The notes beneath the pieces were generated by a model. That model was not told the DNA's origin. It did not search any database and worked only from the letters and a program-made list of their open reading frames with translations. A DNA stretch of 32,000 nt from Candidatus Kuenenia stuttgartensis (GTDB lineage: Bacteria > Planctomycetota > Brocadiia > Brocadiales > Brocadiaceae): the NCBI RefSeq assembly GCF_900232105.1, contig NZ_LT934425.1, positions 840,001 to 872,000 on the forward strand, in the 5' to 3' direction. Shown one piece after another: positions 4,087 to 21,999 of this stretch (the first letter of the stretch is position 1; every line of letters starts with the position of its first letter). The translations under genes and the position numbers were made by a program.

Positions 4087-4878
4087 ATGACAATGAAAAA
4101 AACTTGTATTTTATTGGTATGGTTAATAGCAATTGTCGTTTTTTACGAGACTAAAACAAGCAATGCCGAAGAATCCATTACGCAACTGGCTCATGACGAT
4201 TTATATAAAAAGGCGATGTTTCTTAAAGAAGAGGGTAAAAGTGATGAGGCTATAAACACGTTTAATAAATTCATGGAAGTCAGCAAGGACGAATTGAAAA
4301 GAACTGATGCCATGTTAGAACAATGCATGATTATGAAAGACATGAAAGCCCCTGCGTGGAAGTATAAGGCAAAAGAAGCACAGCAAAAGGTTAAAATTCT
4401 TTACCGGTCTCATTATTTGAACCCGGAATACTGGCTTGTCTATGCAAAATTTGCAGCGCTTATCAATAGGGAGCGTGATGTATATGGGGCATTTAAAAAA
4501 GCTTTCTTTTATAAGCCGGATTATCCGGAAGGTTACATCGTAAAGGGAGATTTGTACGGCTACCTTGCAAAAAATACCGATCCGTCAGAATCCACAGTTA
4601 GTACTTCAATCGATTCTGCATATGAGCCTGTTAGTAAAGAGAATTCGGCCCGTTACAATAAAGGAAAAGAGGCAAAGAAGTCTTACGAAATTGCACTCAG
4701 AAATTCAACACTGGGCAACGACAAAAAGGCTTATATTCATTATAAAATTGGTACACTGGAAATGGATATTTTATCAAATAAAGAAGATGCCATAAGAAAC
4801 TGGAAGAAGACGGCTGAGCTTTCTCCTGACAGTATTTATGGGAAAAAATCCGTAGAACTCCTGAGCGGGAATCCGTGA
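4087..4878 (+). CDS. Secreted TPR-like repeat protein (function unknown)
   Basis: 263 aa. AAGGAG RBS at 4074-4079, 7 nt before ATG 4087. N-terminal signal peptide MTMKKTCILLVWLIAIVVFYETKTSNA/EE. Helical repeat segments look TPR-like. First gene of the coupled operon. Confidence 0.55.
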   Translation: MTMKKTCILLVWLIAIVVFYETKTSNAEESITQLAHDDLYKKAMFLKEEGKSDEAINTFNKFMEVSKDELKRTDAMLEQCMIMKDMKAPAWKYKAKEAQQKVKILYRSHYLNPEYWLVYAKFAALINRERDVYGAFKKAFFYKPDYPEGYIVKGDLYGYLAKNTDPSESTVSTSIDSAYEPVSKENSARYNKGKEAKKSYEIALRNSTLGNDKKAYIHYKIGTLEMDILSNKEDAIRNWKKTAELSPDSIYGKKSVELLSGNP

Positions 4879-5699
4879 TTAATGGCTTGACCGTTGATCT
4901 TGAGGATTGGTATCACATCTGTGGCGTAGAGGGCTATTCTGATCCGCAAAAATGGGATACTTATGAAAACCGTATAATAAGGAATACTGACAAGGTACTT
5001 ACTCTTTTAAGAACGTATAAAGTAAAGGCTACTTTTTTTGTCCTCGGATACATTGCCTTCAAGGAACCTGGTCTTATAAAGACAATTAAGAGCGAGGGAC
5101 ATGAAATAGCAACTCATGGCTTTTATCATAAGAGGATCTTTGAGATGACGGAACGGGAGTTTGAAGAAGATGTCAATAAATCCATTTCTGTTATATCATC
5201 AAATATCAACGAGAGGGTACTGGGTTTTAGGGCGCCGGAATGGTCGATCCGGAAGAATACTTTATGGATGCTTAATGCATTAAGGAAATACGGTATTCTT
5301 TATGATTCAAGCATGGTTCCTCTTACAAGAATGGGATATAGGGATTACCCTGTTTATCCATGTTGCTACAATACTGATTATGGAAAGATTTGGGAATTTC
5401 CGCTCACCACAACAAGGCTGTTTTGGGAACGTCTTCCCTTTACGGGTGGCTTACCGTTAAGACTATGTCCTTATTTTTATATTGTATCAGAAATAAAAAA
5501 AATTAACCGCATGGGGTTTCCTGCAATGGTCTATATACATCCGTGGGAATTTGACAAAGAACAACCACGCATTGATTTGCCGTTAAGCAGGAGATTTATG
5601 CACTATTTCAACATAAGTGCCACTCCCAGGAAGACAGAAGGCTTACTTAGCAATTTTCAATTTGCCCCTATCAAAAATATATTGGGGATTACAACATGA
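4875..5699 (+). CDS. Polysaccharide deacetylase family protein (CE4, DUF3473/XrtA-associated type)
   Basis: 274 aa. GTG start within a GTGA overlap with the upstream stop. N-terminal LTVDLEDWYH and ATFFVLGY...HEIATHGFYH motifs are typical of CE4 deacetylases of the PEP-CTERM/XrtA-associated type. Confidence 0.8.
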   Translation: MINGLTVDLEDWYHICGVEGYSDPQKWDTYENRIIRNTDKVLTLLRTYKVKATFFVLGYIAFKEPGLIKTIKSEGHEIATHGFYHKRIFEMTEREFEEDVNKSISVISSNINERVLGFRAPEWSIRKNTLWMLNALRKYGILYDSSMVPLTRMGYRDYPVYPCCYNTDYGKIWEFPLTTTRLFWERLPFTGGLPLRLCPYFYIVSEIKKINRMGFPAMVYIHPWEFDKEQPRIDLPLSRRFMHYFNISATPRKTEGLLSNFQFAPIKNILGITT

Positions 5700-5896
5700 G
5701 AGATATGTATTATCTTAAATCCGTATCCACCTTTTGCATTATTTATAGCTTAATAGTCGCCTTCTTATATGTATTTACAGTTGTTACGGGTTTTGTCGGG
5801 AGTATTTTTATTTTTGTAACGATTTTGTTTCTGCTTTTTTTTTATTATAATGGGTTCGTAAAATTTAAAAAAATAAGGAACCGTTTTCTACGTTGA
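5696..5896 (+). CDS. Small hydrophobic membrane protein (about two TM helices)
   Basis: 66 aa. ATGA overlap upstream and TTGA overlap downstream. Two long hydrophobic stretches and a basic C-terminus (KFKKIRNRFLR). Coding status is supported mainly by the translational coupling. Confidence 0.5.
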   Translation: MRDMYYLKSVSTFCIIYSLIVAFLYVFTVVTGFVGSIFIFVTILFLLFFYYNGFVKFKKIRNRFLR

Positions 5897-7107
5897 AGAA
5901 GAGAGTTGTTATTACTGGAATGGGCATAATTACCGCCCACGGTATTGGTAAGGAAATAACCTGGAAAAAGATCGTTTCAGGCGCATCAGGTATTAAAGAA
6001 ATAGAGTCTTTCGATTCCTCAAAATATCCCGGAAAGTGCGGTGGAGAGGCAAAGCAGTTTACCTCTGCTTCCGAAATAAGAAATTTAAATGCGGCACGTC
6101 TTGACAGGGCATCGCATTTATTGATTCATGCTTCACGTGAAGCGCTTCTGGAATCAAACGTACTCCCATACATCAAAAATACAAATATACTTTTATCTTT
6201 AGGGACAACACTTGGTGGAATGATTTCCGGAGAGTTGTTTCATAAAGAAGTTCTGAAAAAAGGGCTGAAAAAGGCACGCATTTCTTTATTAACTGATTAT
6301 CTTGCAAATTGCCAGGCGATTAATTTATTCAGGGAATTTCAATTAAAAGGAAATTACAATATATTTTCTAACGCATGTGCATCCGGTACAAATGCCATAG
6401 GTTGTGCGTATAATTCTATACAATCAGGCCTTTATAAAATTGCCATTTGCGGAGGATACGATACTATGAGTGAATTTACCTTTGCCGGTTTCAGCTCTCT
6501 TATGGCAATGACTCCTACTAAGTGCAGGCCGTTTGATAAGAATAGAAACGGGCTGGTACTGGGGGAGGGAGTAGGAATTTTAATTTTAGAGGAATTGGAA
6601 CACGCCGTGAAACGAAATGTACGAATATTGGGCGAAATAATCGGGTACGGGGAATCTTCCGATGCGTATCATATGACAAGCCCCGACCCGACAGGTGAGT
6701 TCGCATTTCGTGCCATTATGAATGCCTTGAATGATGCGGATAATCCAAAAATTGATTATATCAATGCACATGGCACCGGAACTATTTATAATGACGCGCA
6801 GGAATCCAATGCAATATTGAAAGCGTTTGGAGAGGAAACACAAAACATACCCGTAAGTTCAATAAAACCCATGGTTGGCCATATCCTTGGTGGGGCTGGG
6901 GCGGTAGAGGCTATAGTATCATTGCTTTCAATTGAGCGTAAAGCCGTTCCTCCAAATATAAATTATTGCACGCCTGATCCCGTTTGCAATTTGAACATAT
7001 CAAAGGAAACAGTGTATTGCGATATAAAAACCGTTTTGTCCAATTCATTTGGTTTTGGGGGGACTAACGCAACTTTAATACTCAGGGAATATACATGGAT
7101 CGGATAG
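5893..7107 (+). CDS. Beta-ketoacyl-ACP synthase II family (FabF-like), catalytically complete
   Basis: 404 aa. TTG 5893 is the only start codon upstream of the conserved RVVITGMGIIT N-terminus. Cys-His-His triad present: SNACASG (Cys162, nt 6376-6378), YHMTSP and NAHGTGT. GHILGGAGAVEA and FGFGGTN are also present. Confidence 0.9.
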   Translation: MKKRVVITGMGIITAHGIGKEITWKKIVSGASGIKEIESFDSSKYPGKCGGEAKQFTSASEIRNLNAARLDRASHLLIHASREALLESNVLPYIKNTNILLSLGTTLGGMISGELFHKEVLKKGLKKARISLLTDYLANCQAINLFREFQLKGNYNIFSNACASGTNAIGCAYNSIQSGLYKIAICGGYDTMSEFTFAGFSSLMAMTPTKCRPFDKNRNGLVLGEGVGILILEELEHAVKRNVRILGEIIGYGESSDAYHMTSPDPTGEFAFRAIMNALNDADNPKIDYINAHGTGTIYNDAQESNAILKAFGEETQNIPVSSIKPMVGHILGGAGAVEAIVSLLSIERKAVPPNINYCTPDPVCNLNISKETVYCDIKTVLSNSFGFGGTNATLILREYTWIG

Positions 7108-8156
7108 TGTTAACAGGCGTGGGGCCATTGACGCCTATTGGAAAAGGAAAAGAAGATTTCTGGAATGCAGTAGTGAACAACTTCCCAGGCATAAAGAAGA
7201 TAACAAAGTTCATGCCCGATCAAGAATTTTACGGGGGAGAAATTAATGATATCCATTTTGACGAATATATCCCCGACACAAAATTCAGACGTGCCACTGA
7301 AATATCTAAATTTACTATGTCCGCCGCAAAGATGGCAATGGATGACGCTCAGGTTGATTCTCCCAATATTAAAAATCTTGGGCTAGTTGTCGGCTTAACC
7401 CACGGTGCTCTAAACTATACACAATCCTATCACGAACTTCTGGTAACCGAAGGTCCTGAATCTGCCAGTCCCATACTCTTTTCTGATTCTATATTGAACG
7501 CCCCCGCAGGTAATACTTCTATCTGCTTAGGTATTCACGGTCCCGTTCATACTTTGATTGGGGGCAGTGTAACAACCATACGGGCGATCATGCTCGCAGT
7601 ACAATTATTAGCCACAAAAAAAATGGAAAAGTCAGTTATTGCTTCTGCCGAAGAATTAAACAAATTTTCACTATACTGTTACTACAGGCTGGGGATAAAC
7701 ACATTGTCTGAAGGTGCCGGTGCTCTCTTAATAGAACCGGAAGATACAAAGAACAATCAAGTCCCGTATTGTTATATTTCCGGCTTTGCTTCACAAACCA
7801 ATCCTTCAAATTTACAGTCCGCGTTGGAAGAATCCGTTGAAACCGCGTTGAAAAAAGCCAATTTAAAAGCAAAAGACGTTGATCTGTTAATGACGTCCCC
7901 TTCTTTCCCCAAAGTACAGCAGCTTGATGCATATGAAATTCCCATGGGTAGTTTGGATTCAATTACGGGAAATGCATTTGCTGTTTCTACCATATGGAAC
8001 GTTATTCTATCGGCGTTGTGTATAAGGCATGGGGCAATACCATTGCCTATTCTCAAAAATTCAGCGCCGATTAACAACGAGATCAGGAACGTAATGATTT
8101 GTGCAACTGAGAGCGAAGGGGTTGCGGGAGTATTAATTTTATCGAAAATATCATGA
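7095..8156 (+). CDS. Ketosynthase-like protein lacking the catalytic triad (KS-beta/CLF-like partner)
   Basis: 353 aa, overlapping the upstream KS by 13 nt. KS-like N-terminus (RIVLTGVGPLTPIG) and NAPAGNTSICLGIHGP. By eye alignment the nucleophile Cys position is Ser158 (GGSVTT, nt 7566-7568). Both His motifs are replaced (QTN for HxT, MTSPSFP for NAHGTGT, GNAFAVS for GHxLGAAG). Confidence 0.75.
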   Translation: MDRIVLTGVGPLTPIGKGKEDFWNAVVNNFPGIKKITKFMPDQEFYGGEINDIHFDEYIPDTKFRRATEISKFTMSAAKMAMDDAQVDSPNIKNLGLVVGLTHGALNYTQSYHELLVTEGPESASPILFSDSILNAPAGNTSICLGIHGPVHTLIGGSVTTIRAIMLAVQLLATKKMEKSVIASAEELNKFSLYCYYRLGINTLSEGAGALLIEPEDTKNNQVPYCYISGFASQTNPSNLQSALEESVETALKKANLKAKDVDLLMTSPSFPKVQQLDAYEIPMGSLDSITGNAFAVSTIWNVILSALCIRHGAIPLPILKNSAPINNEIRNVMICATESEGVAGVLILSKIS

Positions 8157-8169: not shown

Positions 8170-9243
8170 TTGTTTAAGACTATGAATTATAATTTTCCCG
8201 ATACAAGATTATTATTAAGCCAATTTCTTGTACAAAGATATCAAACAGAAATGCTTTTGAAATTTGCGCAAGAAGAAGGAATCCTGCGGCTTCTTGAGTC
8301 TATTGATACATTTCACATCAATGAAGCTATAGAAGCGCTTCAAAATAAGCTCAATTATCAATTGCAGGACAGGTTGAGAAGAAGAATGATACATACACTT
8401 ATTTATCTATTACAGGAGTGTGGATATTTAAGCCTTGAAAACACCAGATATCAATGGCATATGATTGAAAATGCTGCTCCGAAATTAAAAGACGAGGAAT
8501 ATAAAATTATTGAAGTTTCATTTAAGGGAGTGGTGGGGTTTTTTGAAGAGTGTATCAAATACAGCGGTGATTTTTTGCGTGGAGCAACGCCACGTTTCAA
8601 TTTTAATGCGGAATTTACGTCGATATGGGAAAGCTTTCTGGGTAATGCAGAGTTCAACTTTGCCAGATCCATTCTTATAGAATTGTTAATGTTTGAAAAA
8701 AAAGAAAACAGTAATATTCTCGTTCTTTGCTTTGGCCCAGGTTTTGATTTGGTAAAGATAAGTGAGCGATTTTCCAATGTGAAATTATTTGGTCTTGATT
8801 TTGCCGAGAACTTTTACGATAAAGCCAAAAGCAAATTATCAAATTCTCATACCATCGAATGGGTACGTTCTGACCGTTGGAAAGGTTTTGGCTTTCCATT
8901 ACCTTTTCAGGATAATTGCATGGAAGTTGTGTTTTTTGGATGTGCTGATCCATATATCCCCGTTGAAAAAAGAAGATATGCTTATAAGGAAATCTTCAGG
9001 GTTTTGAAGCATGAGGGTTCACTTGGCATTTTGACCAACAGTTACCCTGACCAGGAGAAAAAATACGTAAAAGATAAATGGATAAGATTGGGAATACTTG
9101 CTCATGATTTCTGTGAAAGTGTCTGCGAGGGGTGGCAGGGTTTTCATGAAGCAGTGAATTCAATAAAACTTTTTAAAGAGATTGGGTACCATACGAATAC
9201 CGTAATGCTCAATGCTTCGATCTGGAGATTGGACAAACCTTGA
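8170..9243 (+). CDS. SAM-dependent methyltransferase with an N-terminal helical (O-methyltransferase-like dimerisation/wHTH-like) region
   Basis: 357 aa from TTG 8170; ATG 8182 is an alternative start. Class I methyltransferase motif I variant ILVLCFGPGFD, then LFGLDF and a post-I acidic residue. The assignment of the ~170-aa N-terminal domain is tentative. Confidence 0.7.
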   Translation: MFKTMNYNFPDTRLLLSQFLVQRYQTEMLLKFAQEEGILRLLESIDTFHINEAIEALQNKLNYQLQDRLRRRMIHTLIYLLQECGYLSLENTRYQWHMIENAAPKLKDEEYKIIEVSFKGVVGFFEECIKYSGDFLRGATPRFNFNAEFTSIWESFLGNAEFNFARSILIELLMFEKKENSNILVLCFGPGFDLVKISERFSNVKLFGLDFAENFYDKAKSKLSNSHTIEWVRSDRWKGFGFPLPFQDNCMEVVFFGCADPYIPVEKRRYAYKEIFRVLKHEGSLGILTNSYPDQEKKYVKDKWIRLGILAHDFCESVCEGWQGFHEAVNSIKLFKEIGYHTNTVMLNASIWRLDKP

Positions 9244-10421
9244 GCGGAAGAATATTGATAACGGGCATTGGTTTCATTACACCAATCAAACCTTTTCAGG
9301 GGGTGAACGAATTCTGGCATGCATTGTGTTCCGGGCAGGATCTTATAAAAAAAACGAGACTTCCTTTGCTTGAAATTGATGGGGAATGGCCAATGGCGGA
9401 AATTAGCCTTTCCTGCATAACGCAAACCGTTCAACCGGAAGATAAATTTCAATATCTTATGAAAAGAGCTTTGAACATGGCAATTGAGGATGCAAATCTG
9501 AAAGATTGCTCAAATATAGGTTTCTCCATGGGTACGGTTTTGGGAAATATGTTATTAAAGGAAAAAAAATTGGCTGATGCAAAAAAGCAAAAGAAAGAAT
9601 ACTGTGGTGAACAAGATTCCCTTTCTAATGTGACATTGCAATTTTCTTCCCTATATAACCTAAACGGACCAAAATATACCGTCTCAACCGCATGTACTTC
9701 CGGTACTGATGCCATAGGGATTGCAGCCAGAAGCATACTATCCGGCAAAACTGATATTATGATTGCCGGTGGAGCTGATATTTTGAGTGATTTTGCTATT
9801 ATCGGATTCCATGCCCTTCAGGCAATTACAACTGATAAGGTAAGACCCTTCGATAAAAACAGAAGCGGACTCGCACTCGGCGAAGGGGCGTCATTTGTTG
9901 TGCTTGAGTCCGAGAAAAGCGCGGCAAAAAGAAATGCAAAGGTATATGGCCGGGTCATGGGATATGCGTCGCGTGCTGACGCCAATCATTTAACAGGCCC
10001 TCATCGCGAAGGACGAGGCCTTGCCGAAGCAATAGACAGGGCAATGGGTCAGTCGGGAGTAAAACCGGGTGATATTAATTATATTAATGCACACGGGACT
10101 GGTACGGTTTACAATGATCTTATGGAAACAAAGGCAATAAAGCGGGTATTTGGAAGGTTGGCATATGATATCCCAATCAGTTCGACAAAGTCAATGCTGG
10201 GACATTCCCTGGGTGCGGCGGGGGCTATCGAAGCTATATGTTGCCTGCTGGCAATAAAAAACGGAATTGTACCTCCTACCATTAACTTTCAGGAATGCGA
10301 TCCCGACTGCGATCTTGATTATACTCCGAATATTGCAAGAAACCACCACGTGAAAATGGCAATGTCTCTATCCGCCGGTTTTGGCGGCCAAAACTCAGCG
10401 ATCATATTAGGTGGCGCATGA
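9240..10421 (+). CDS. Beta-ketoacyl-ACP synthase II family (FabF-like), catalytically complete
   Basis: 393 aa. TTG start within a TTGA overlap, required by the conserved GRILITGIGFITP N-terminus. STACTSG (Cys152, nt 9693-9695), NHLTGP, NAHGTGT, GHSLGAAGAIEA and GFGGQN are present. Confidence 0.9.
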   Translation: MSGRILITGIGFITPIKPFQGVNEFWHALCSGQDLIKKTRLPLLEIDGEWPMAEISLSCITQTVQPEDKFQYLMKRALNMAIEDANLKDCSNIGFSMGTVLGNMLLKEKKLADAKKQKKEYCGEQDSLSNVTLQFSSLYNLNGPKYTVSTACTSGTDAIGIAARSILSGKTDIMIAGGADILSDFAIIGFHALQAITTDKVRPFDKNRSGLALGEGASFVVLESEKSAAKRNAKVYGRVMGYASRADANHLTGPHREGRGLAEAIDRAMGQSGVKPGDINYINAHGTGTVYNDLMETKAIKRVFGRLAYDIPISSTKSMLGHSLGAAGAIEAICCLLAIKNGIVPPTINFQECDPDCDLDYTPNIARNHHVKMAMSLSAGFGGQNSAIILGGA

Positions 10422-16140: not shown

Positions 16141-16985
16141 ATTTGCAGCATGTGAATTGTAACCTTTGTGGCGCTGATGATACTAAAATAATTACAGTTC
16201 AAAGCAATCATAACGTGGTAAGATGCAAGAAATGCAGCCTTGTATATGTAAATCCAAGACCGAATACTGAGCATTTAATCCATCTCTATGAAACCTATCA
16301 CCAAAGAAATGGAAAGAGAGAGTACACATGGGCAAATCTTATGGAGAGAAATTACAGGGAAGTATCGGGGTTTTTGGCGCAGGTTTTTCCCGGAAAAGGT
16401 AAAATCCTCGATATTGGATGCGGCTATGGGCATTTTCTCGAAATAATGAGGATTCTTGGATGGGTTGTTAGCGGAATTGATCCATCGCCAAATACGGTGT
16501 GTGCTGCAAACAAAAAGAATCTCAATGTTATTGAAACGTCCATTGAAGACGTTTCCCTCCCGGAAGCTTCTTTCGATGCGATAACAGCTTTTTACGTCCT
16601 GGAACATCTTCCGGATCCATACTCTGCGGTAAAAAAAATCCATTCCCTGCTAAAACCTGGAGGCGTGTTCGTCCTGAGAGTTCCACACACGACTCCTATT
16701 GTCAGACTCCTTTCATTATTCCATATAAAAAATAATCTCTACGATACCCCATACCACTTGTACGATTTTTCACCCGAAACCATTACCGTTCTGTTAAAAA
16801 AAGCGGGGTTTACAACGGTTCAGGTAAAGCCTGGCACACCGACACTTCCGGTTAATTTTTTAGAGAAAATAGTCTCCATTACATCGGGAAATATTGCCCG
16901 AATATTTTTTGCGGTCAGCGGGGGAAAATTTCTTTTCCCAGGCACAAGTAAAACCACAATTGCTTGTAAAAATCTGACAGAATAA
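16137..16985 (+). CDS. Class I SAM-dependent methyltransferase with N-terminal Cys4 zinc ribbon
   Basis: 282 aa with an ATGA overlap. CNLCG...CKKC ribbon. Motif I ILDIGCGYGHF. Also VLEHLPDP and LKPGGVF motifs. Confidence 0.8.
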   Translation: MNLQHVNCNLCGADDTKIITVQSNHNVVRCKKCSLVYVNPRPNTEHLIHLYETYHQRNGKREYTWANLMERNYREVSGFLAQVFPGKGKILDIGCGYGHFLEIMRILGWVVSGIDPSPNTVCAANKKNLNVIETSIEDVSLPEASFDAITAFYVLEHLPDPYSAVKKIHSLLKPGGVFVLRVPHTTPIVRLLSLFHIKNNLYDTPYHLYDFSPETITVLLKKAGFTTVQVKPGTPTLPVNFLEKIVSITSGNIARIFFAVSGGKFLFPGTSKTTIACKNLTE

Positions 16986-17010: not shown

Positions 17011-19518
17011 ATGGAATTTTTCTTAAAAAAGTGCGCATCATTTATCCATTCCTTTCACAAGCAAATAGTTGTTGTATTTGCTCTGCTCACGGCAGTCTCC
17101 ATAGTAACAATTTTTTACATGGAAATTAAAACGGACATAATAGACGTTCTTCCATCTAAAAATAAGAAAGTAGGCCAGTTTAAGGACTTCATTGAAAAAT
17201 ACGGTATTTCGGATAATGTAGTATTGCTGTTGGAATCGACGGAGAATGAAATTGATGAACAAACAGAACTCATAGAAACGCTTGCAAACAAACTTGCAGC
17301 ATCTCCATATATTGAGCACGTTGATTATAGCCCGTTAAAATACGAAAACAGTTTTTTTATCAATCATATACCGTTGCTTCTTGATGAAAAAGGATTGAAA
17401 CGCCTTGAAAACAGACTTACCCCAAAAGGCATCGAACGGCAAATAAGATATAATCTCCAAAAACTTCTCTCTCCCCTTAGTTCTCCAATCGATTACGAAA
17501 TGATTTCAAAAGACCCTCTTGATATTGCAGACATAGTAAAAGATTCTCTTATGAGCGCAAACAAAGAGGACAGCCTTGATATCAGTACCGGTTATTACAT
17601 CACGTCGGATTATTCAACTGCCGTTATCTTCGTTAAACCAAAGGGCAAAGGAAGGGATATGGCCTTTGTCGGTAATTTGAAACGGGAACTGGACGACATT
17701 ATCTCATTCTCAATGGAGAAAGCCGGCAATCCTTCGGACGTACGGGTGGAACTTACCGGCAACTGCGTTTTATCGGAAGAAGTGCGCCAAATTATCCGTC
17801 ATGACGTAGCATACTCTTTTCTCTTATCCGTTTTTCTCATTGCCGCACTCATATGGTTTGCGTACAGAGTAAGAGTTAAGATTCTATTGGTTATCGGATT
17901 TACCTTGTTGACGTCTCTTTCCACTACACTTGCCTTTGCATACCTGGTTTTCGGTAGTCTGAATATAGTAACAAGCGTTGTTGCGGCGCTACTTATCGGC
18001 CTTTACGTGGATTATGCAATGCATTCGGTAAATAGATTCGGCGAGGTTTTTAGAAAACTGAACAACCGGCAAAAGGCCCTGGAACAAACCCTTACCAAAA
18101 CTGGTTCTGCGATCATTATATCTGCAAGCACAACGTCGCTGTCTTTTTTCAGTATAATTGTGACCAAATTCAATGGTTTGCATGAGTTGGGTATTGTTGC
18201 AGGAATAGGAGTTTTATTATGTTTGTTATCCACGCTCTTCCTGACAAACTCTCTTCTTTACTGGATAAGTAAAAAAGGGTTGCATAAAATCCAGTTGAAA
18301 AAAGAGGTCCCTACAGGAGTTGAAAATCTTATCAAACTGCTCGTTAAAAGACCCAATAGGATACTTGCTATTAGTATTATCGTTTTTATCATCGCGGGTT
18401 TTGGTGTAACAAGATTAAAGTTTAACAATGATCCCGATAGTATCATCCCAAAAGATTGCTCCTCGGTTGCTGTGGGAAAAAAACTTCAGAAAAAAATGGG
18501 TAATAAAGGGGAACCGCTTTCCATAGTAATTAAAGCTCTGGATAAAAAGGGACTATCCTTTGCCTTTGACGAACTTGAAAAACTGCTTATGCAATTGAAA
18601 GAGAATGGTCTGATTAAGGATTACAATTCGTTAAACATCTTCATGCCAGCTCCCTCCGTTCAGTTGGAAAGAAAAAGAAAAATAAAAACAATGCTGGCGG
18701 ATAATGACATACAGCCTGACGCGCTGACGAAAACGCTACTGGACTCTCTTGAAAAAAATAAATTGGTATATGAGAAAACGTATGTAAACAACTACATAAA
18801 AAATGTAACAAATGCGCTGTATAACGCGCAATCCATTGGCCTGGAAGACGTTGAAATGCTATCTTCTCCAAGAGTAAAGCATTTTTACAATAAAGAAGAC
18901 CTGTCCATTGCCTCTTATATTTATCAGGGGAATAATGGATGGGACATAGAAACCATTAACAAAATTCAGCAAATGGTTGATTCGAAAGGGCAGAATTGGA
19001 TATTTACGGGGAAACCGATCTTGTTCAATGAAATAAAACCTACCATCATTTGGGGCAGCGCTTTAGCATCGATCATGGCGCTCCTGATGAATTTTGTTAT
19101 TATTTATTTGTACTTCAGAAAAATACTTCATACGATATTTGTTTTGCTGCCGGTAACGCTGGGGTTTCTCCTGACGTTGGGGGCGATGGCCTTCCTGGGT
19201 ATTCCTTTTAACGTCATTAACGTAGGCACTATAGCTTTAGTTTTCGGGCTAGGCGTGGATTATGGCATATACGTAATGCAGGCATATGTAAGAGAAGATG
19301 AAAAAAATATTTATAGTGCACTTCGAACGAGCGGTAAAAATGTGATGATGTGCTCGGCCACAACCGTTGCAGGTTGTGGAAGTCTCGCGCTTGCAAAATT
19401 TACCGGCATTGCAACCGTGGGCCTTGTACTTTCCATAGGAGCAATTGCTTGCGCCATTACCGCGTTGCTTGTATTGCCAACAATTATTTATCTGAATGAG
19501 AGACGAATTTCACAATGA
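17011..19518 (+). CDS. MMPL/RND-superfamily lipid exporter (HpnN-like architecture)
   Basis: 835 aa. Two blocks of ~6 TM helices, each preceded by a large soluble loop. Repeated GxDY motifs (LYVDYAMH, GVDYGIYV), as in MMPL/HpnN transporters. Confidence 0.8.
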   Translation: MEFFLKKCASFIHSFHKQIVVVFALLTAVSIVTIFYMEIKTDIIDVLPSKNKKVGQFKDFIEKYGISDNVVLLLESTENEIDEQTELIETLANKLAASPYIEHVDYSPLKYENSFFINHIPLLLDEKGLKRLENRLTPKGIERQIRYNLQKLLSPLSSPIDYEMISKDPLDIADIVKDSLMSANKEDSLDISTGYYITSDYSTAVIFVKPKGKGRDMAFVGNLKRELDDIISFSMEKAGNPSDVRVELTGNCVLSEEVRQIIRHDVAYSFLLSVFLIAALIWFAYRVRVKILLVIGFTLLTSLSTTLAFAYLVFGSLNIVTSVVAALLIGLYVDYAMHSVNRFGEVFRKLNNRQKALEQTLTKTGSAIIISASTTSLSFFSIIVTKFNGLHELGIVAGIGVLLCLLSTLFLTNSLLYWISKKGLHKIQLKKEVPTGVENLIKLLVKRPNRILAISIIVFIIAGFGVTRLKFNNDPDSIIPKDCSSVAVGKKLQKKMGNKGEPLSIVIKALDKKGLSFAFDELEKLLMQLKENGLIKDYNSLNIFMPAPSVQLERKRKIKTMLADNDIQPDALTKTLLDSLEKNKLVYEKTYVNNYIKNVTNALYNAQSIGLEDVEMLSSPRVKHFYNKEDLSIASYIYQGNNGWDIETINKIQQMVDSKGQNWIFTGKPILFNEIKPTIIWGSALASIMALLMNFVIIYLYFRKILHTIFVLLPVTLGFLLTLGAMAFLGIPFNVINVGTIALVFGLGVDYGIYVMQAYVREDEKNIYSALRTSGKNVMMCSATTVAGCGSLALAKFTGIATVGLVLSIGAIACAITALLVLPTIIYLNERRISQ

Positions 19519-20969
19519 AGGATTTTGATGTCATAGTTATCGGAAGTGGAATCGGGGGACTTATTAGTGCCGGAACGTTGGTCTCAAAAGGGATGAAAAC
19601 CCTTCTGGTTGAAAAAAACAAAATTCCCGGCGGACTACTTGCCTCTTTCAAAAGGAAGGGGTTCCTCTTTAATTCCGCTGTTGACTGTATCTCGGGTGTT
19701 GCTAAAGGGGGGTACATTTCAAACGTTCTAGAGAGTCTCGACGTTGATTCCGAAATAAACTTTGTAAAGCTGAATCCCATAAGATTTAGTATTTTCCCAG
19801 ATATCCGGATTCCCGTAGACTCAAACATGAATGTCTATATTGAAAGGCTCATTCAACTATTTCCCTCGGAAGCGTCGGGAATAAAAAAATTATTCAACTT
19901 CATGGATGGTTCATTTACCTTGGTACAGTCCATGCTAGATTCATTTTTATCCGGCAAGCCTGGATTAGGGAAAGCAACTCATGAAATTTTTGAACTAAGA
20001 AATATTTCATACAAGGATCTGCTGAGAAAATATATCACTAATTACCGCCTTACCATGGTTTTATCCGACCGATGTCCCTTTATCGGACTGCCGCCATCAC
20101 GAGTATCGGCATTCTCAATGGTCAACATGATCATGAGCTATTTCAAATTGGGTGCCTACAGACCAATAGGTGGCTTCCAGAAACTTGCGGATATTCTTGT
20201 CAAAGGAATTGAAAACAAAGGAGGCATGGTACTGTTGGGAAACGGAGCTGATAAAATACTACTGGAAAATAATAATCGGTGTTATGGAGTTCGGTGCGAG
20301 AACGGCAATGAATATACTTCCGAATTTGTGGTCTCCAGCGTTGACTCGCATCATACATTCGGCGATCTGTTGGGAAGAGAATTTGAATCTATTCCAACGG
20401 AAATGCGAAAAAAAACGGGCATCTCAACGTCATTTTTCGTTGTATATGCCGGAGTCAAAGGTGAGGTTACCGAACATTCGAGCGTTGGTTATTTTCCCTC
20501 GTATGACATGGAAAGTTTTTTTTCTCCTAAAAGCTCCTTTAAGAATGACTCGACCATTGGTGTAACGGTTGCCAGTATGGAGGACAAACTCCTTGCCCCT
20601 GATGCCTGCAACACGGTGGTATTGCACGAAATGGCGGAAGCCTCCGATAAAGAGATAGACAAATCCGTATGTACGGGAATAGTGATTAAAAAAGCGGAAA
20701 AGATAATACCAGGATTGAAAGACAAAATTATTGTCCTTGATTCCGCTACACCTAAATCCATTGAACGATATACCGGAAATTTCAATGGCTCCGCATTTGG
20801 ATGGAATCAAATACCAGGTTTTAAAAACGTAAAGGGGTATGGAATAAACAATCTATACATTGCCGGTCATTGGGGAGAAATAGGTGGCGGAGTATTGGCG
20901 GCAGCATATTCCGGGGCCAAAGCAGCGAAGGAAATCCTTACAAAGGAAAGCGTCACTAATGGAATCTAA
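19515..20969 (+). CDS. Phytoene desaturase (CrtI)-family FAD-dependent oxidoreductase
   Basis: 484 aa with an ATGA overlap. N-terminal dinucleotide fold DVIVIGSGIGGLISAG..LVEK. C-terminal NLYIAGHW...GGGVLAAAYSG is typical of the CrtI / amine-oxidase fold. Confidence 0.8.
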   Translation: MKDFDVIVIGSGIGGLISAGTLVSKGMKTLLVEKNKIPGGLLASFKRKGFLFNSAVDCISGVAKGGYISNVLESLDVDSEINFVKLNPIRFSIFPDIRIPVDSNMNVYIERLIQLFPSEASGIKKLFNFMDGSFTLVQSMLDSFLSGKPGLGKATHEIFELRNISYKDLLRKYITNYRLTMVLSDRCPFIGLPPSRVSAFSMVNMIMSYFKLGAYRPIGGFQKLADILVKGIENKGGMVLLGNGADKILLENNNRCYGVRCENGNEYTSEFVVSSVDSHHTFGDLLGREFESIPTEMRKKTGISTSFFVVYAGVKGEVTEHSSVGYFPSYDMESFFSPKSSFKNDSTIGVTVASMEDKLLAPDACNTVVLHEMAEASDKEIDKSVCTGIVIKKAEKIIPGLKDKIIVLDSATPKSIERYTGNFNGSAFGWNQIPGFKNVKGYGINNLYIAGHWGEIGGGVLAAAYSGAKAAKEILTKESVTNGI

Positions 20970-21999
20970 AATATATGTTGCAATACCGGCGTATAATGCT
21001 TCCAAGACAATCGGCAATGTGGTTTCCGCTGCTTTAAAACATGTTTCCACAGTTATAGTCATAGATGACGGGTCCACTGATAATACTGCAATTGTTGCCT
21101 TTGAAGCAGGTGCTGGAATCATTACTCTGGGAAAAAACAAAGGTAAAGGTAACGCATTAAAGATATTTTTTCAAAAAGCAATTCAGGAAAAATTTGACGC
21201 GGTTATAACCTTGGACGCAGACGGACAACATGATCCGGAGGAAATACCTCTTTTCCTGCATGAACACAAATTGTTTCCAGAATCAACAATAGTAGGAAAC
21301 AGGTTCCGTGAGAAGGAAAAGATACCAGACGCCCGATACAATGCCATGCGTATTGCCCAGTTTTATATTTCTCTTTCAGCAAACCAGTATTTGGAAGATT
21401 CCCAGTGCGGTTTTAGGTTGTATCCCATGGCAATAATAAAAAACATACCACTAACGACAGAAAGATATGTTACTGAATCAGAAATATTAATGAAGGTTGG
21501 AGATATGGGCAAAACCATTAGATTTGTAGATATTAAGACGATATACAACAATAGTAAAAGTTATCTAACGCCGGTATATGATGTTTCAAGCATAGCGGCG
21601 TATGTTATTTCTTATATTCATATAAAGTGGTTTGTCGAGGGATTAACCCCAAATAATCCATATACTTATTCTACAATAGGCTATATAAGGGATACTCTCG
21701 GGGAAAAAAAAAGCTTGAATATGTTTTTTCAAACTCTTACCGTGTTTACAGCGCTTCCTGCAAGCATATTTTTTTATTTGGAGTATAGTTTACTTCAATT
21801 CTTTATTCCTTATAATTTTGCTTCTATACGCAAACTTGATTGTGGGTTTTCGCGGATTGTTCTTGCAACACAGATGTTGCCTATATTACTTATTGTAGCC
21901 CTCATTGAAAAATGCTTAAAGACAACTGGATGTAAAATAAATCTTGTTAGCGGAACTATAAAAAAATTTTATCCAAACTTATGGAAAAACAAAAGATAG
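20959..21999 (+). CDS. Family 2 glycosyltransferase with C-terminal TM helices (polyprenyl-phosphate glycosyltransferase-like)
   Basis: ATG 20959 is preferred over the ORF-track start at 20884. The conserved N-terminus IYVAIPAYNASKTI begins there, overlapping the upstream gene by 11 nt. VIDDGSTDNT and LDADGQHDPEE (DxD) motifs. About three hydrophobic helices in the C-terminal third. Confidence 0.85.
   Translation: MESKIYVAIPAYNASKTIGNVVSAALKHVSTVIVIDDGSTDNTAIVAFEAGAGIITLGKNKGKGNALKIFFQKAIQEKFDAVITLDADGQHDPEEIPLFLHEHKLFPESTIVGNRFREKEKIPDARYNAMRIAQFYISLSANQYLEDSQCGFRLYPMAIIKNIPLTTERYVTESEILMKVGDMGKTIRFVDIKTIYNNSKSYLTPVYDVSSIAAYVISYIHIKWFVEGLTPNNPYTYSTIGYIRDTLGEKKSLNMFFQTLTVFTALPASIFFYLEYSLLQFFIPYNFASIRKLDCGFSRIVLATQMLPILLIVALIEKCLKTTGCKINLVSGTIKKFYPNLWKNKR

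What the first reader, a model, noticed from the sequence alone, without database searches (positions are those of the whole stretch)
4087..21999. 18-gene, ~18-kb translationally coupled operon: ER-less type II FAS/PKS-like core with radical SAM enzymes, a CrtI-like oxidoreductase and an MMPL exporter (candidate ladderane/unusual-lipid pathway)
Seen directly:
- 18 same-strand ORFs have 15 of 17 junctions overlapping by 4-16 nt (GTGA 4875; ATGA 5696, 10418, 11002, 13351, 15700, 16137, 19515; TTGA 5893, 9240, 15446).
- Only two gaps exist, at 8157-8169 and 16986-17010.
- The content is 2 complete KS, 2 degenerate KS-like proteins, KR, DH and ACP. No enoyl reductase, FabD, thioesterase or acyltransferase is present.

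Established: a KS/KR/DH/ACP set without an ER tends to give unsaturated chains. B12-radical SAM enzymes carry out difficult C-C/C-H chemistry, for example BchE ring formation and OxsB four-membered-ring formation.

From memory, not verifiable here: this content and order match the anammox locus proposed for ladderane lipids (Rattray et al. 2009), which was tested heterologously without ladderane production (Javidpour et al. 2016). The locus may therefore be a known candidate, but its chemistry is unassigned.
Basis: partly seen in the sequence, partly recalled or inferred. Interest (0 to 1): 0.9.

Follow-up and report, generated by a model that had tools for sequence, protein, structure and literature searches.

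The report
Known Kuenenia lipid operon, not ladderane-specific

Summary
There are 18 same-strand ORFs at 4087-21999, nearly all overlapping by 4-16 nt, with the stated gene content.

The window is Candidatus Kuenenia stuttgartiensis: the proteins match exactly. The block is the published kuste3352-kuste3335 locus (Rattray 2009). Javidpour 2016 tested it in E. coli, uninformatively: the radical SAM proteins were not detected, most other proteins were insoluble and the MMPL gene was left out.

The complete block, gene for gene, is collinear in Nitrospirota (18 of 18 in a Dissulfurispiraceae MAG). Near-complete collinear blocks occur in NC10 and Deltaproteobacteria genomes of 45-70% GC. Rearranged relatives occur in Geobacter. 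The field now favours a different, anammox-exclusive cluster (kuste3603-3608).

Thirteen of the 18 proteins have counterparts in a bona fide flexirubin cluster. The additions here are a PKS-type C-methyltransferase (ortholog solved, PDB 8hd2), two radical SAM enzymes, a TPR protein and a small membrane peptide.

Best reading: a highly reducing type II PKS-like pathway that makes a methyl-branched, radical-tailored acyl chain for an exported envelope glycolipid. The product is unknown. A supporting role in ladderane synthesis is not excluded.

The parts
213..1556 (+). Upstream B12-binding radical SAM enzyme (U1). Probably part of the same system.
   Evidence: Pfam B12-binding plus Radical_SAM. 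Only family-level NCBIfam hits: HpnJ 120 bits, BchE 102, TIGR04072 86, all below cut-off. Homologs at 40-43% identity sit directly beside the ORF11-type enzyme in Geobacter and Syntrophaceae clusters. A B12-rSAM also lies upstream in the L087 variant.
1534..2697 (+). ATP-grasp ligase (U2), coupled to U1. The likely start ATG 1534 overlaps the U1 stop.
   Evidence: Pfam ATP-grasp families; start analysis. Orthologs at 61-93% identity lie immediately upstream of ORF01 in Brocadia, Nitrospirota and Dissulfurispiraceae loci.
4087..4878 (+). ORF01 (kuste3352): signal- or anchor-bearing TPR solenoid protein, a likely periplasmic scaffold.
   Evidence: AAGGAG ribosome-binding site. AlphaFold model with pLDDT 87 is all-helical, and its best PDB matches are all TPR proteins. 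Weak Pfam TPR hits. Position is conserved across phyla. The published 'VacJ-like' label is not supported.
4875..5699 (+). ORF02 (kuste3351): polysaccharide deacetylase-family enzyme with DUF3473.
   Evidence: Pfam Polysacc_deac_1 1e-20 and DUF3473 1e-33. XrtA-system deacetylase model 261 bits, below the 276 cut-off. It is 59-83% identical in the collinear loci that carry it (not detected in L024).
5696..5896 (+). ORF03 (kuste3350): 66-aa hydrophobic peptide with two predicted transmembrane helices. It is not an ACP.
   Evidence: No PP-binding hit; sequence. A similar small hydrophobic ORF ending in an (A/L)(Y/W)FY-like motif occupies the same slot in Nitrospirota, NC10 and L087.
5893..7107 (+). 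ORF04 (kuste3349): active ketosynthase KSa.
   Evidence: Pfam KS N- and C-terminal domains. FabF-subfamily model 388.5 bits, cut-off 387. Cys/His/His motifs present.
7095..8156 (+). ORF05 (kuste3348): catalytically dead KS-like protein, the chain-length-factor-like partner of KSa.
   Evidence: The triad is absent, matching Rattray Table 2. Pfam Ketoacyl-synt_2 is above cut-off. NCBI names a close relative 'chain length factor'. The best PDB hit is 9s5h_C; Iga12 (6kxd_B) also matches. It overlaps KSa by 13 nt.
8170..9243 (+). ORF06 (kuste3347): PKS-type C-methyltransferase, ortholog of AmxMT1.
   Evidence: PDB 8hd2 matches at E 1e-123 over the full length. The Tyr and the His-x3-Glu dyad are conserved. 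The structure paper shows a PKS C-MT fold and a short pocket suited to a small beta-ketoacyl-ACP. Public gene calls start at ATG 8182.
9240..10421 (+). ORF07 (kuste3346): active ketosynthase KSb.
   Evidence: Pfam KS domains. Triad intact. Best PDB hit 9s5h_B at 3e-81, ahead of all canonical FabF.
10418..11005 (+). ORF08 (kuste3345): 195-aa half-KS (N-terminal thiolase half, no catalytic residues), the likely partner of KSb.
   Evidence: Weak Pfam ketoacyl-synt hit and alignment. Its counterpart in the flexirubin cluster is a 187-aa 'KS N-terminal-like' protein placed directly after a KS. A full-length 323-aa KS-like protein fills this slot in L087.
11002..12309 (+). ORF09 (kuste3344): PaaK/FlxY-type adenylate-forming ligase, the presumed starter-unit activator.
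   Evidence: Best NCBIfam hit is FlxY at 422 bits, below the 520 cut-off. It is 38% identical to the bona fide FlxY of Aureispira.
12302..13354 (+). ORF10 (kuste3343): radical SAM/SPASM enzyme.
   Evidence: Pfam Radical_SAM plus SPASM. Only family-level similarity to AhbD/NirJ2, about 161 bits against a 500 cut-off.
13351..14712 (+). ORF11 (kuste3342): B12-binding radical SAM enzyme of family TIGR04072.
   Evidence: TIGR04072 rSAM_ladder_B12 at 440 bits, above the 360 cut-off. The CxxxCxxC motif and many other columns are invariant across 16 diverse homologs. Exact match to QII11133.1 / Q1Q260_KUEST.
14697..15449 (+). ORF12 (kuste3341): 3-oxoacyl-ACP reductase FabG.
   Evidence: NF009466 FabG 268.8 bits, above the 222 cut-off; TIGR01830 297.7 against 297.75. 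The canonical kustd1386-1391 FAS cluster carries no fabG; kuste3341 lies here instead. The gene is missing from the Jettenia and STL-AMX1 blocks.
15446..15703 (+). ORF13 (kuste3340): acyl carrier protein.
   Evidence: Pfam PP-binding. LGLDS motif present. It is not the Cluster I amxACP; PDB matches are only generic ACPs.
15700..16140 (+). ORF14 (kuste3339): FabZ-type dehydratase.
   Evidence: NF000582 FabZ 114.3 bits, cut-off 113. It is no closer to the four chains deposited as 'Beta-hydroxyacyl-(Acyl-carrier-protein) dehydratase' (7qv0, 8ayb, 8ayc, 8ayi; probably amxFabZ, E about 1e-18 to 1e-19) than to ordinary FabZ. The L087 ortholog hits the ApeI/ApeP-like Pfam families.
16137..16985 (+). 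ORF15 (kuste3338): class I SAM methyltransferase.
   Evidence: Pfam Methyltransf_23 1e-30. No close solved relative.
17011..19518 (+). ORF16 (kuste3337): MMPL/RND-type (HpnN-like) lipid exporter.
   Evidence: Pfam MMPL 1e-36. HpnN and HAE3 models match below cut-off.
19515..20969 (+). ORF17 (kuste3336): CrtI/carotenoid-isomerase-family flavoprotein.
   Evidence: carot_isom 165 bits and crtI_fam 127 bits, both below cut-off. It did not replace CrtI in lycopene synthesis. A CrtI-family gene likewise follows the MMPL gene in the flexirubin cluster.
20959..21999 (+). ORF18 (kuste3335): GT2 glycosyltransferase of the polyprenyl-phosphate sugar transferase type.
   Evidence: Pfam Glycos_transf_2 1e-20. 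Nearest NCBIfam models are AglJ, PpgS and ArnC, all below cut-off.

Best explanation
**What it is.** The block is the kuste3352-kuste3335 operon of Candidatus Kuenenia stuttgartiensis. It encodes a stand-alone, highly reducing type II PKS/FAS-like assembly line joined to an envelope-export module. The system is shared with several phyla of anaerobes.

**Inferred mechanism.**
- The PaaK/FlxY-type ligase (ORF09) activates a starter acid.
- Two heterodimers, each an active KS with a dead KS-like partner (ORF04+05 and ORF07+08), prime and extend the chain on the dedicated ACP (ORF13). Malonyl units come from the housekeeping FabD.
- The PKS-type C-methyltransferase (ORF06) methylates the alpha carbon of a short beta-ketoacyl-ACP.
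- FabG (ORF12) and FabZ (ORF14) reduce and dehydrate. No dedicated enoyl reductase is present.
- The SPASM radical SAM enzyme (ORF10), the B12-radical SAM enzyme (ORF11, plus the upstream one) and the CrtI-family flavoprotein (ORF17) then tailor the chain. Possible reactions are methylation, cyclisation, or double-bond isomerisation or saturation.
- The GT2 (ORF18) and the deacetylase (ORF02) build an amino-sugar lipid head.
- The MMPL pump (ORF16), the TPR protein (ORF01) and the small membrane peptide (ORF03) deliver the product to the envelope.

**What is shown and what is inferred.**
- Shown: the identity of the locus, the domain content, the active-site states, the taxonomic spread and the flexirubin-like layout.
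- Inferred: every chemical step and the nature of the product.

The block is not by itself the ladderane-specific pathway.
For: Identity:
- All 18 proteins are about 100% identical to the Kuenenia CSTR1 chromosome CP049055 and have named Kuenenia accessions.
- Gene functions and order equal the published kuste3335-3352 table.

Spread beyond anammox:
- The block is collinear in a Dissulfurispiraceae MAG (18 of 18 once the small ORF is counted), in other Nitrospirota, in NC10 and in Deltaproteobacteria.
- These loci have 45-70% GC against 40% in anammox loci.
- In a four-protein neighbour-joining tree the anammox sequences form one clade beside the Nitrospirota sequences.
- Kuste3347, once called nearly unique, has 34-60% identical orthologs, named ones in Nitrospirota at 44-49% identity.

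Type II PKS character:
- Two intact and two dead KS lie in translationally coupled pairs.
- Their best solved relatives are the two chains of PDB 9s5h, with the ishigamide KS/CLF also matching.
- The Cluster I paralogs form a KS/CLF-like heterodimer whose KS is structurally closest to the ishigamide KS.

Flexirubin-like layout:
- A cluster verified by the FlxA, FlxB and FlxY equivalog models contains counterparts of 13 of the 18 proteins.
- These include the half-KS after a KS, the CLF followed by a deacetylase, and an MMPL gene followed by a CrtI-family gene.

C-methyltransferase:
- PDB 8hd2 matches at 1e-123 and the catalytic Tyr and His-Glu dyad are conserved.
- The structure paper infers alpha-methylation of a short beta-ketoacyl-ACP.

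Expression: the operon is transcribed and stress-responsive in Kuenenia.
Against: - No product is known from any carrier of the block.
- The non-anammox carriers are uncultured MAGs whose lipids have never been analysed, so 'they make no ladderanes' rests on the general finding that ladderanes are confined to anammox bacteria.
- Several hallmarks of aryl-polyene/flexirubin clusters are missing: ammonia-lyase or another aryl-starter supply, thioesterase, LolA and acyltransferase.
- The ligase scores below the FlxY cut-off.
- Housekeeping FabI could act in trans, so the chain need not be a polyene.
- The AmxMT1 ortholog was pulled down by the Cluster I ACP, which hints at cross-talk with the favoured ladderane cluster. 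No other ACP was tested.
- FabG in this operon may simply be the cell's housekeeping reductase.
Confidence: 0.55

Rival explanations
1. The block is part of the ladderane pathway in anammox bacteria. For example, it could build or methylate a precursor that the anammox-exclusive Cluster I enzymes and radical SAM enzymes convert into fused cyclobutanes.
For: - It lies in a ladderane producer and was proposed for this role.
- It contains the kind of radical and flavin enzymes that such chemistry would need.
- Its KS/CLF pairs are the closest relatives of the two chains of PDB 9s5h, which is probably the Cluster I heterodimer.
- AmxMT1, the ortholog of ORF06, bound the Cluster I ACP in a pull-down.
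- The E. coli test was not informative: the radical SAM proteins were undetected, the others insoluble, and the MMPL gene omitted.
Against: - The whole block is collinear in Nitrospirota, NC10 and Deltaproteobacteria.
- Desulfotalea, which carries related clusters, has no ladderanes.
- The field's criteria (exclusive to all ladderane producers, highly expressed) are reported for Cluster I, not for this block.
- The AmxMT1 pocket is too small to build a ladder.
- No Scalindua ortholog appeared among named hits, although those searches were truncated.
Confidence: 0.2
2. The block is a de novo route to mid-chain methyl-branched fatty acids. The C-methyltransferase would methylate a C8 beta-ketoacyl-ACP, and four further elongations would then give 10-methylhexadecanoic acid.
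For: - ORF06 is a PKS-type C-methyltransferase with a short-chain pocket.
- 10-methylhexadecanoic acid is the typical lipid of Methylomirabilis, an NC10 bacterium, and an NC10 MAG carries the block.
- From memory, unverified here: anammox bacteria also contain this acid (Sinninghe Damste 2005).
- The operon holds Kuenenia's FabG; the canonical FAS cluster has none.
Against: - The idea does not explain two radical SAM enzymes, a CrtI-family enzyme, GT2, deacetylase, MMPL or a starter ligase.
- One Nitrospirota locus (L011) and the Geobacter-type clusters lack ORF06.
- The known route to 10-methyl acids, a Cfa-type methylase plus a flavin reductase acting on an unsaturated acid, needs none of these genes (established knowledge).
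- The NC10 MAG is not shown to be Methylomirabilis.
Confidence: 0.1
3. The block is an anaerobic polyunsaturated fatty acid or hydrocarbon pathway, as Rattray et al. proposed from the synteny with Desulfotalea psychrophila.
For: - The core has no enoyl reductase but does have a CrtI-family enzyme.
- D. psychrophila makes C31:8 and C31:9 hydrocarbons.
Against: - No polyunsaturated acids or hydrocarbons were found in Kuenenia.
- E. coli strains expressing the genes made no new fatty acids.
- kuste3336 showed no desaturase activity on phytoene.
- From established knowledge, C31:9 hydrocarbons in other bacteria come from Pfa and Ole enzymes, which this block does not resemble.
Confidence: 0.07

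Closest known systems
Kuenenia stuttgartiensis kuste3352-kuste3335 locus (Strous 2006; Rattray 2009, PMC2649909; Javidpour 2016, PMC4790861)
   Same: It is the same locus. The proteins are identical, and there are 18 genes in the same order with the same annotations.
   Different: Three published labels do not hold here:
- kuste3350 is a two-helix membrane peptide, not an ACP.
- kuste3352 is a TPR protein, not VacJ-like.
- kuste3347 is not nearly unique to anammox bacteria.
Anammox Cluster I, kuste3603-3608 (amxACP, amxFabZ, amxFabF2/amxFabFmut, PDH, B12-radical SAM)
   Same: It uses the same toolkit in miniature: ACP, FabZ, a KS plus a dead KS that form a KS/CLF-like heterodimer, a CrtI-family enzyme and a B12-radical SAM enzyme. 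The window's KS and CLF-like proteins have PDB 9s5h, probably that heterodimer, as their best solved relatives.
   Different: - Cluster I is reported to be exclusive to ladderane producers and highly expressed. This block is shared with other phyla.
- The window's FabZ and ACP are not the anammox-specific versions.
- This block adds a ligase, two methyltransferases, a SPASM radical SAM enzyme, GT2, a deacetylase, MMPL and a TPR protein.
Flexirubin / aryl-polyene clusters (highly reducing type II PKS; e.g. Aureispira anguillae plasmid NZ_AP026868; ishigamide Iga11/Iga12)
   Same: - KS/CLF pairs, including a roughly 190-aa half-KS placed after a KS.
- Discrete ACP, KR and DH with no ER.
- A FlxY-like ligase.
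- A polysaccharide deacetylase after the CLF.
- GT2, MMPL, a methyltransferase, and a CrtI-family flavoprotein next to MMPL.
- In all, 13 of 18 families are shared.
   Different: - The window's block has no tyrosine ammonia-lyase, thioesterase, LolA, acyltransferase or second ACP.
- It has in addition two radical SAM enzymes, a PKS-type C-methyltransferase, a TPR protein and a small membrane peptide.
- The ligase and reductase score below the FlxY and FlxB cut-offs.
Geobacter/Desulfotalea-type 'lipid biosynthesis B12-binding/radical SAM' clusters (TIGR04072 neighbourhoods)
   Same: They share ACP, an ORF11-type B12-radical SAM enzyme, FabG, KS plus a KS-like partner, FabZ, MMPL, a deacetylase and GT2. 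They also carry U1-type B12-radical SAM enzymes like the one upstream in the window.
   Different: - The gene order is rearranged.
- Identity to the window's proteins is 21-49%.
- They have two to four tandem B12-radical SAM genes.
- They have no ORF06 methyltransferase, no ligase and usually no CrtI-family gene in the stretch examined.

Membership tests
Published kuste3352-kuste3335 locus of Ca. Kuenenia stuttgartiensis | Protein sequences identical to Kuenenia records | tested here: met
   Exact-sequence look-ups return QII11133.1 (KsCSTR_17540), Q1Q260_KUEST and other Kuenenia accessions. The chromosome CP049055 carries all 18 genes at about 100% identity.
Published kuste3352-kuste3335 locus of Ca. 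Kuenenia stuttgartiensis | Same 18 gene functions in the same order as the published table | tested here: met
   The Pfam and NCBIfam calls match Javidpour Table 2 and the Rattray text gene by gene.
Ladderane biosynthetic pathway | Restricted to ladderane-producing (anammox) bacteria | tested here: not met
   Collinear blocks occur in Nitrospirota, NC10 and Deltaproteobacteria MAGs of 45-70% GC.
Ladderane biosynthetic pathway | Present in every ladderane-producing genus, including Scalindua | tested here: inconclusive
   The block was found in Kuenenia, Brocadia and Jettenia. No Scalindua-named hit appeared.
Ladderane biosynthetic pathway | Genes yield ladderanes or ladderane intermediates when expressed | not testable with these tools
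   The literature reports no new fatty acids in E. coli. However, kuste3342, kuste3343 and kuste3350 were not detected, nearly all other proteins were found only in the insoluble fraction, and kuste3337 was omitted.
Anammox Cluster I (kuste3603-3608) | Contains the anammox-specific ACP and FabZ | tested here: not met
   The window's FabZ matches four PDB chains deposited as 'Beta-hydroxyacyl-(Acyl-carrier-protein) dehydratase' (7qv0, 8ayb, 8ayc, 8ayi; probably amxFabZ, not verified) no better (E about 1e-18 to 1e-19) than it matches ordinary FabZ. The ACP matches only generic ACPs.
Highly reducing type II PKS (aryl-polyene / flexirubin / ishigamide type) | Discrete active KS paired with a catalytically dead KS-like partner (CLF) | tested here: met
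   By sequence only: two intact and two dead KS lie in overlapping gene pairs. The CLF-like protein has a Ketoacyl-synt_2 hit and an Iga12 match. Heterodimer formation was not tested.
Highly reducing type II PKS (aryl-polyene / flexirubin / ishigamide type) | Discrete ACP, KR and DH without an enoyl reductase in the cluster | tested here: met
Highly reducing type II PKS (aryl-polyene / flexirubin / ishigamide type) | Aryl starter supply (tyrosine ammonia-lyase or 4-hydroxybenzoate route) with a FlxY/ApeH-type ligase | tested here: not met
   No ammonia-lyase is present in the window. The ligase has FlxY as its best model, but at 422 bits against a 520 cut-off.
Highly reducing type II PKS (aryl-polyene / flexirubin / ishigamide type) | Envelope module: MMPL exporter, GT2, LolA-like carrier, acyltransferase, thioesterase | tested here: inconclusive
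   MMPL, GT2 and a deacetylase are present. LolA, acyltransferase and thioesterase are absent, and ORF01 is a TPR protein rather than LolA-like.
TIGR04072 lipid biosynthesis B12-binding/radical SAM protein | Score above the curated equivalog cut-off | tested here: met
   ORF11 scores 440 bits against a 360 cut-off. The upstream U1 scores only 86 bits and is not a member.
PKS-type C-methyltransferase (AmxMT1, PDB 8hd2) | Full-length homology with the catalytic Tyr and His-x3-Glu dyad conserved | tested here: met
   E 1.7e-123 over residues 4-353. The motifs CADPY and HDFxE are both conserved. The residues are defined in PMC9821293.

The most novel reading that the evidence does not exclude
The block and its relatives in Nitrospirota, NC10 and Desulfobacterota make an undescribed class of radical-SAM-tailored type II polyketide-like envelope lipid. 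In anammox bacteria the same machinery would supply the methylated or unsaturated precursor that the anammox-exclusive Cluster I turns into ladderanes. If so, studying the block in a culturable or genetically tractable non-anammox carrier would open the ladderane problem.
Probability: 0.15. Interest if true: 0.85.

Novelty: already known. Interest (0 to 1): 0.4.

Why it matters
How ladderanes are made has been an open question for more than twenty years, and this operon has been repeatedly listed as a candidate. Three points follow from this work.

- The entire 18-gene block is shared, gene for gene, with non-anammox anaerobes, and it is laid out like flexirubin/aryl-polyene pathways. That moves it from 'ladderane genes' to a widespread, uncharacterised, radical-SAM-tailored lipid pathway.
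- This warns against reading antiSMASH 'ladderane' hits in other phyla as evidence of ladderane production.
- It suggests a practical route to the product: knockouts or lipidomics in culturable or genetically tractable carriers (Geobacter relatives, Dissulfurispira) instead of unculturable anammox bacteria.

If the product were found, it would be one of very few fatty-acyl-type lipids known to be modified by radical SAM enzymes.

Tried and rejected
- **Promoter and terminator scans** around both ends of the block gave no more sites than shuffled sequence. They say nothing about operon boundaries.
- **An Rfam scan** of the window found nothing, for example no cobalamin riboswitch.
- **The 'VacJ-like lipoprotein' label for kuste3352** was rejected. 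The confident model is a TPR solenoid, and there is no lipobox cysteine after the hydrophobic segment.
- **The 'ACP' label for kuste3350** was rejected.
- **The idea that the window's FabZ and ACP are the structurally characterised anammox-specific proteins** was rejected.
- **The Scalindua question** could not be settled. Named hits in three searches and a cluster-member look-up gave no Scalindua. However, the genome scan was truncated and most entries are unnamed.
- **Mis-binning** of anammox contigs as an explanation for the non-anammox loci was rejected on GC content, on 23-71% protein identity to the window, and because several lie on contigs of about 0.3-1 Mb.
- **PDB 9s5h** is not named in the Granatino preprint text, so calling it the Cluster I heterodimer remains an inference.
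- **ORF15** has no close solved relative.

Full report
**1. The observation**

- The ORF list shows 18 consecutive + strand ORFs from 4087 to 21999.
- A junction analysis confirms eleven exact 4-nt start/stop overlaps at the stated positions. It also confirms a 13-nt overlap at 7095/7107, a 16-nt overlap at 14697/14712, and the two small gaps at 8157-8169 and 16986-17010.
- The longest ORFs for genes 10 and 18 begin at 12248 and 20884. The likely starts are ATG 12302 (preceded by GGAGG) and ATG 20959, which give overlaps of 8 and 11 nt. Public gene calls use these starts.
- The number of overlapping junctions is 14-15 of 17, depending on whether TTG 15446 or ATG 15452 is taken for the ACP.
- The layout is that of a tightly packed, probably translationally coupled operon. 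ORF01 has a good AAGGAG ribosome-binding site, and the block is followed by a 500-nt spacer of 28% GC.
- Consensus promoter and terminator scans were no better than shuffled sequence. No Rfam family matched.

**2. Gene content** (Pfam and NCBIfam)

| ORF | Assignment |
|---|---|
| 01 | Signal- or anchor-bearing protein with weak TPR hits |
| 02 | Polysaccharide deacetylase with DUF3473 |
| 03 | 66-aa hydrophobic peptide |
| 04, 07 | Ketosynthases with the Cys/His/His triad intact |
| 05 | 353-aa KS-like protein without the triad |
| 06 | Methyltransferase |
| 08 | 195-aa half-KS without the triad |
| 09 | PaaK-type ligase; best model is the flexirubin ligase FlxY, 422 bits against a 520 cut-off |
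| 10 | Radical SAM/SPASM enzyme |
| 11 | B12-radical SAM enzyme; passes the TIGR04072 equivalog 'lipid biosynthesis B12-binding/radical SAM protein', 440 bits against 360 |
| 12 | FabG |
| 13 | ACP |
| 14 | FabZ |
| 15 | Second methyltransferase |
| 16 | MMPL/HpnN-like transporter |
| 17 | CrtI/carotenoid-isomerase-family flavoprotein |
| 18 | GT2 of the polyprenyl-phosphate sugar transferase type |

No enoyl reductase, FabD, thioesterase or acyltransferase is present.

**3. Identity of the locus**

- The exact sequence of ORF11 is encoded on the 4.33-Mb chromosome CP049055 (GCA_011066545.1) within an identical 18-gene block.
- Exact-sequence look-ups return Candidatus Kuenenia stuttgartiensis accessions for ORF05, ORF11, ORF14 and the nearby MurB.
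- All 18 proteins are about 100% identical to that chromosome.
- Function and order match the published kuste3335-kuste3352 table gene for gene (Javidpour 2016; Rattray 2009).
[quoted passage not shown] It reports that kuste3346 and kuste3335 are upregulated under hydrazine stress.
- The finding is thus a rediscovery of a locus known since 2006-2009.

**4. The published heterologous test was not informative for this block**

- The genes were split into small synthetic operons that were tested singly.
- kuste3342 and kuste3343, the two radical SAM enzymes, were not detected.
- Nearly all other proteins were found only in the insoluble fraction.
- The MMPL gene was left out.
- kuste3336 did not replace CrtI in lycopene synthesis.
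- As of 2026, reviews and primary papers still state that ladderane biosynthesis is unknown.
- They concentrate on a different cluster, kuste3603-3608. That cluster is described as conserved in, and exclusive to, ladderane producers. It is the most highly expressed candidate cluster after the canonical FAS genes.

**5. Distribution**

- ORF11 has thousands of homologs. Named ones at 49-65% identity come from Jettenia and Brocadia, and equally from Nitrospirota, Thermodesulfovibrionales, Dissulfurispiraceae, Magnetominusculus and Deltaproteobacteria.
I examined the best 80 with 10-kb flanks.
- I assigned every ORF in these loci to its best window protein. The whole block is in the same order and orientation in:
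  - Jettenia ecosi and two Brocadiaceae;
  - several Nitrospirota (L009, L011, L012, L013);
  - an NC10 MAG on a 1.08-Mb contig (L019);
  - Deltaproteobacteria MAGs (L021, L024);
  - unclassified bacteria (L026, L035/L087).
- In the Dissulfurispiraceae locus L013, 17 genes are detected by BLAST at 34-70% identity. The eighteenth, the small hydrophobic ORF03, is present in the same slot with the same C-terminal motif. It is likewise present in L011, L019 and L087.
- These loci have 45-70% GC against about 40% for the anammox loci. They are therefore native to other organisms and are not mis-binned anammox DNA.
- In a neighbour-joining tree of four concatenated proteins (1631 columns, no bootstrap), the anammox sequences form one clade beside the Nitrospirota sequences. 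NC10 and Deltaproteobacteria lie further away. This suggests horizontal transfer of the block; the direction is unknown.
- Kuste3347 (ORF06) was singled out in 2009 as almost unique to Kuenenia. It belongs to a small family of 60 clusters with members in Nitrospirota and Dissulfurispiraceae.
- Geobacter, Oryzomonas, Pelobacter and Syntrophaceae carry a rearranged relative. Its order is deacetylase, GT2, SPASM enzyme, ACP, one to three U1-type B12-radical SAM genes, an ORF11-type gene, FabG, KS, KS-like, FabZ and often MMPL.
At the genomic level that condition is met.
- One caveat remains: the lipids of these MAGs are unknown. Rattray et al. did examine Desulfotalea psychrophila, which has related clusters, and found no ladderanes.
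- Metagenomic surveys also report 'ladderane' BGC calls in many non-anammox phyla without an explanation.

**6. Extent of the system**

- The upstream B12-radical SAM gene (213-1556) and the ATP-grasp gene are coupled; the likely ATP-grasp start, ATG 1534, overlaps the preceding stop.
- ATP-grasp orthologs lie directly before ORF01 in Brocadia, Nitrospirota and Dissulfurispiraceae.
- U1-type enzymes lie inside the Geobacter-type clusters and upstream in L087.
- In the window a nucleotidyltransferase/HepT toxin-antitoxin pair (2965-3709) separates them from ORF01.
- In strain CSTR1 a Tn5-type transposase occupies that position.
- The ancestral unit is therefore probably U1-U2 plus the 18 genes, with a strain-variable insertion site in Kuenenia.

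**7. What kind of machine it is**

- The two intact KS are each followed by an overlapping, catalytically dead KS-like gene.
- Among solved structures, ORF07 is closest to chain B and ORF05 to chain C of PDB 9s5h, ahead of all canonical FabF proteins. ORF05 also matches the ishigamide chain-length factor.
- The Cluster I paralogs were shown in 2026 to form a KS/CLF-like heterodimer whose KS is structurally closest to the ishigamide ketosynthase. PDB 9s5h is probably that complex, but the preprint text does not give the code.
- ORF06 is the ortholog of AmxMT1 (PDB 8hd2, E 1e-123), with the catalytic Tyr and His-x3-Glu dyad conserved.
- The AmxMT1 structure has a polyketide C-methyltransferase fold and a short pocket. 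Its authors infer alpha-methylation of a small beta-ketoacyl-ACP, giving a branched chain, and state that the pocket cannot build a ladder.
- A tblastn search with the ligase led to a plasmid-borne cluster in Aureispira anguillae. NCBIfam equivalogs identify it as a true flexirubin cluster: FlxA 820 bits against 700, FlxB 395 against 340, FlxY 715 against 520.
- That cluster has counterparts of 13 of the window's 18 proteins. These include local arrangements:
  - a 187-aa half-KS directly after a KS;
  - a CLF followed by a polysaccharide deacetylase;
  - an MMPL gene followed by a CrtI-family flavoprotein gene.
- The E-values refer to a very small database. The family assignments, however, are independently supported by Pfam.
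- Missing from the flexirubin cluster are ORF01, ORF03, ORF06 and both radical SAM enzymes.
- Missing from the window are the ammonia-lyase, thioesterase, LolA, acyltransferase and second ACP.
- ORF01 was modelled with 24 homologs (pLDDT 87). It is a TPR solenoid behind an N-terminal hydrophobic helix; all top PDB matches are TPR proteins.

**8. Best explanation**

- The block is a highly reducing type II PKS/FAS-like line joined to an envelope-export module. Its parts are a starter ligase, two KS/CLF-like pairs, ACP, a C-methyltransferase, KR and DH, with no dedicated ER.
- Tailoring is by a SPASM radical SAM enzyme, one or two B12-radical SAM enzymes and a CrtI-family flavoprotein.
- The export module consists of GT2 plus a deacetylase (an ArnC/ArnD-like pairing, by analogy), MMPL, the TPR protein and the small membrane peptide.
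- The likely product is a methyl-branched, further modified acyl chain displayed on an amino-sugar-containing envelope lipid.
- Identity, domain content, active-site states, distribution and architecture are shown. Every chemical step is inferred.
- I give this 0.55.

**9. Rivals**

- **A role in ladderane synthesis (0.2).** This is not excluded. The heterologous test was uninformative, the KS/CLF pairs are paralogous to those of Cluster I, and AmxMT1 was pulled down by the Cluster I ACP, although no other ACP was tried. Distribution argues against the block being sufficient or specific.
- **A de novo route to mid-chain methyl-branched acids (0.1).** This is suggested by the C-methyltransferase and by the fact that 10-methylhexadecanoic acid typifies Methylomirabilis. 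It leaves most genes unexplained, and some carriers lack ORF06.
- **The original anaerobic PUFA/hydrocarbon idea (0.07).** It has no supporting product in Kuenenia or E. coli.

**10. Verdict**

- The feature is real and correctly described, but it is an already known locus.
- The ladderane label should be downgraded.
- The useful new points are:
  - gene-for-gene conservation outside anammox bacteria, including genes once thought unique;
  - the flexirubin/aryl-polyene-like scaffold;
  - three annotation corrections;
  - the suggestion to solve the product in tractable non-anammox carriers.
- Interest is 0.4.

Noticed in passing
window 2965-3709 (+): A nucleotidyltransferase (Polbeta/MNT) and HepT-like toxin-antitoxin pair sits between the ATP-grasp gene and ORF01. 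In strain CSTR1 (L001) a Tn5-type transposase with a DruA-like domain occupies this spot, and in Brocadia and Nitrospirota the ATP-grasp gene abuts ORF01 directly. This looks like a strain-variable insertion site at the head of the operon.
   Followed up: partly
window 5696-5896 (+): kuste3350 is listed in the literature as a 66-aa putative ACP. It has no PP-binding domain and is a hydrophobic peptide with two predicted helices. A similar peptide is conserved in the same slot in Nitrospirota, NC10 and other carriers.
   Followed up: yes
window 14697-15449 (+); L006 and L007: The canonical kustd1386-1391 FAS cluster carries no fabG; kuste3341 lies in this operon instead. The otherwise collinear blocks of Jettenia ecosi and Brocadiaceae STL-AMX1 lack FabG between the B12-radical SAM gene and the ACP gene. 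Its presence here may therefore be a housekeeping gene hitch-hiking in the operon.
   Followed up: partly
L055, L057 and other Geobacter-type loci: Geobacter, Oryzomonas and Pelobacter clusters carry two to four tandem B12-radical SAM genes (U1-type plus ORF11-type). These lie between an ACP gene and the FabG/KS/KS-like/FabZ genes, with deacetylase, GT2 and a SPASM enzyme upstream. This is an uncharacterised lipid cluster in genetically tractable bacteria.
   Followed up: partly
L005 (contig CAYFQB010000031.1): A contig labelled 'uncultured Nitrospiraceae' has 38.6% GC and 51-66% identity to the window, and it groups next to the anammox clade. Its taxonomic label may be wrong, or it may mark the donor or recipient lineage of a transfer.
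   Followed up: no
window 26583-31959 (-): An Rnf/Nqr-type membrane complex gene set lies here: a 4Fe-4S subunit, RnfD/NqrB-like, an FMN-binding subunit, a fused Rnf-Nqr membrane subunit of 480 aa, and a 545-aa 2Fe-2S/NAD-binding NqrF-like protein. It is unrelated to the finding.
   Followed up: no
window 22500-24752 (+): An OmpA-domain protein with a von Willebrand A domain, and a 2-thiouracil desulfurase/DUF1722 protein, follow the operon after an AT-rich 500-nt spacer. Both are conserved downstream in the three Kuenenia-type contigs that extend that far (L001-L003).
   Followed up: no
L085 1-3879 (Aureispira plasmid NZ_AP026868): The flexirubin cluster encodes a single 1292-aa protein annotated as a fusion of MMPL transporter, lysophospholipid acyltransferase and class I methyltransferase. 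In the window, transporter and methyltransferase functions are on separate proteins (ORF16, ORF15), and the acyltransferase is absent.
   Followed up: no
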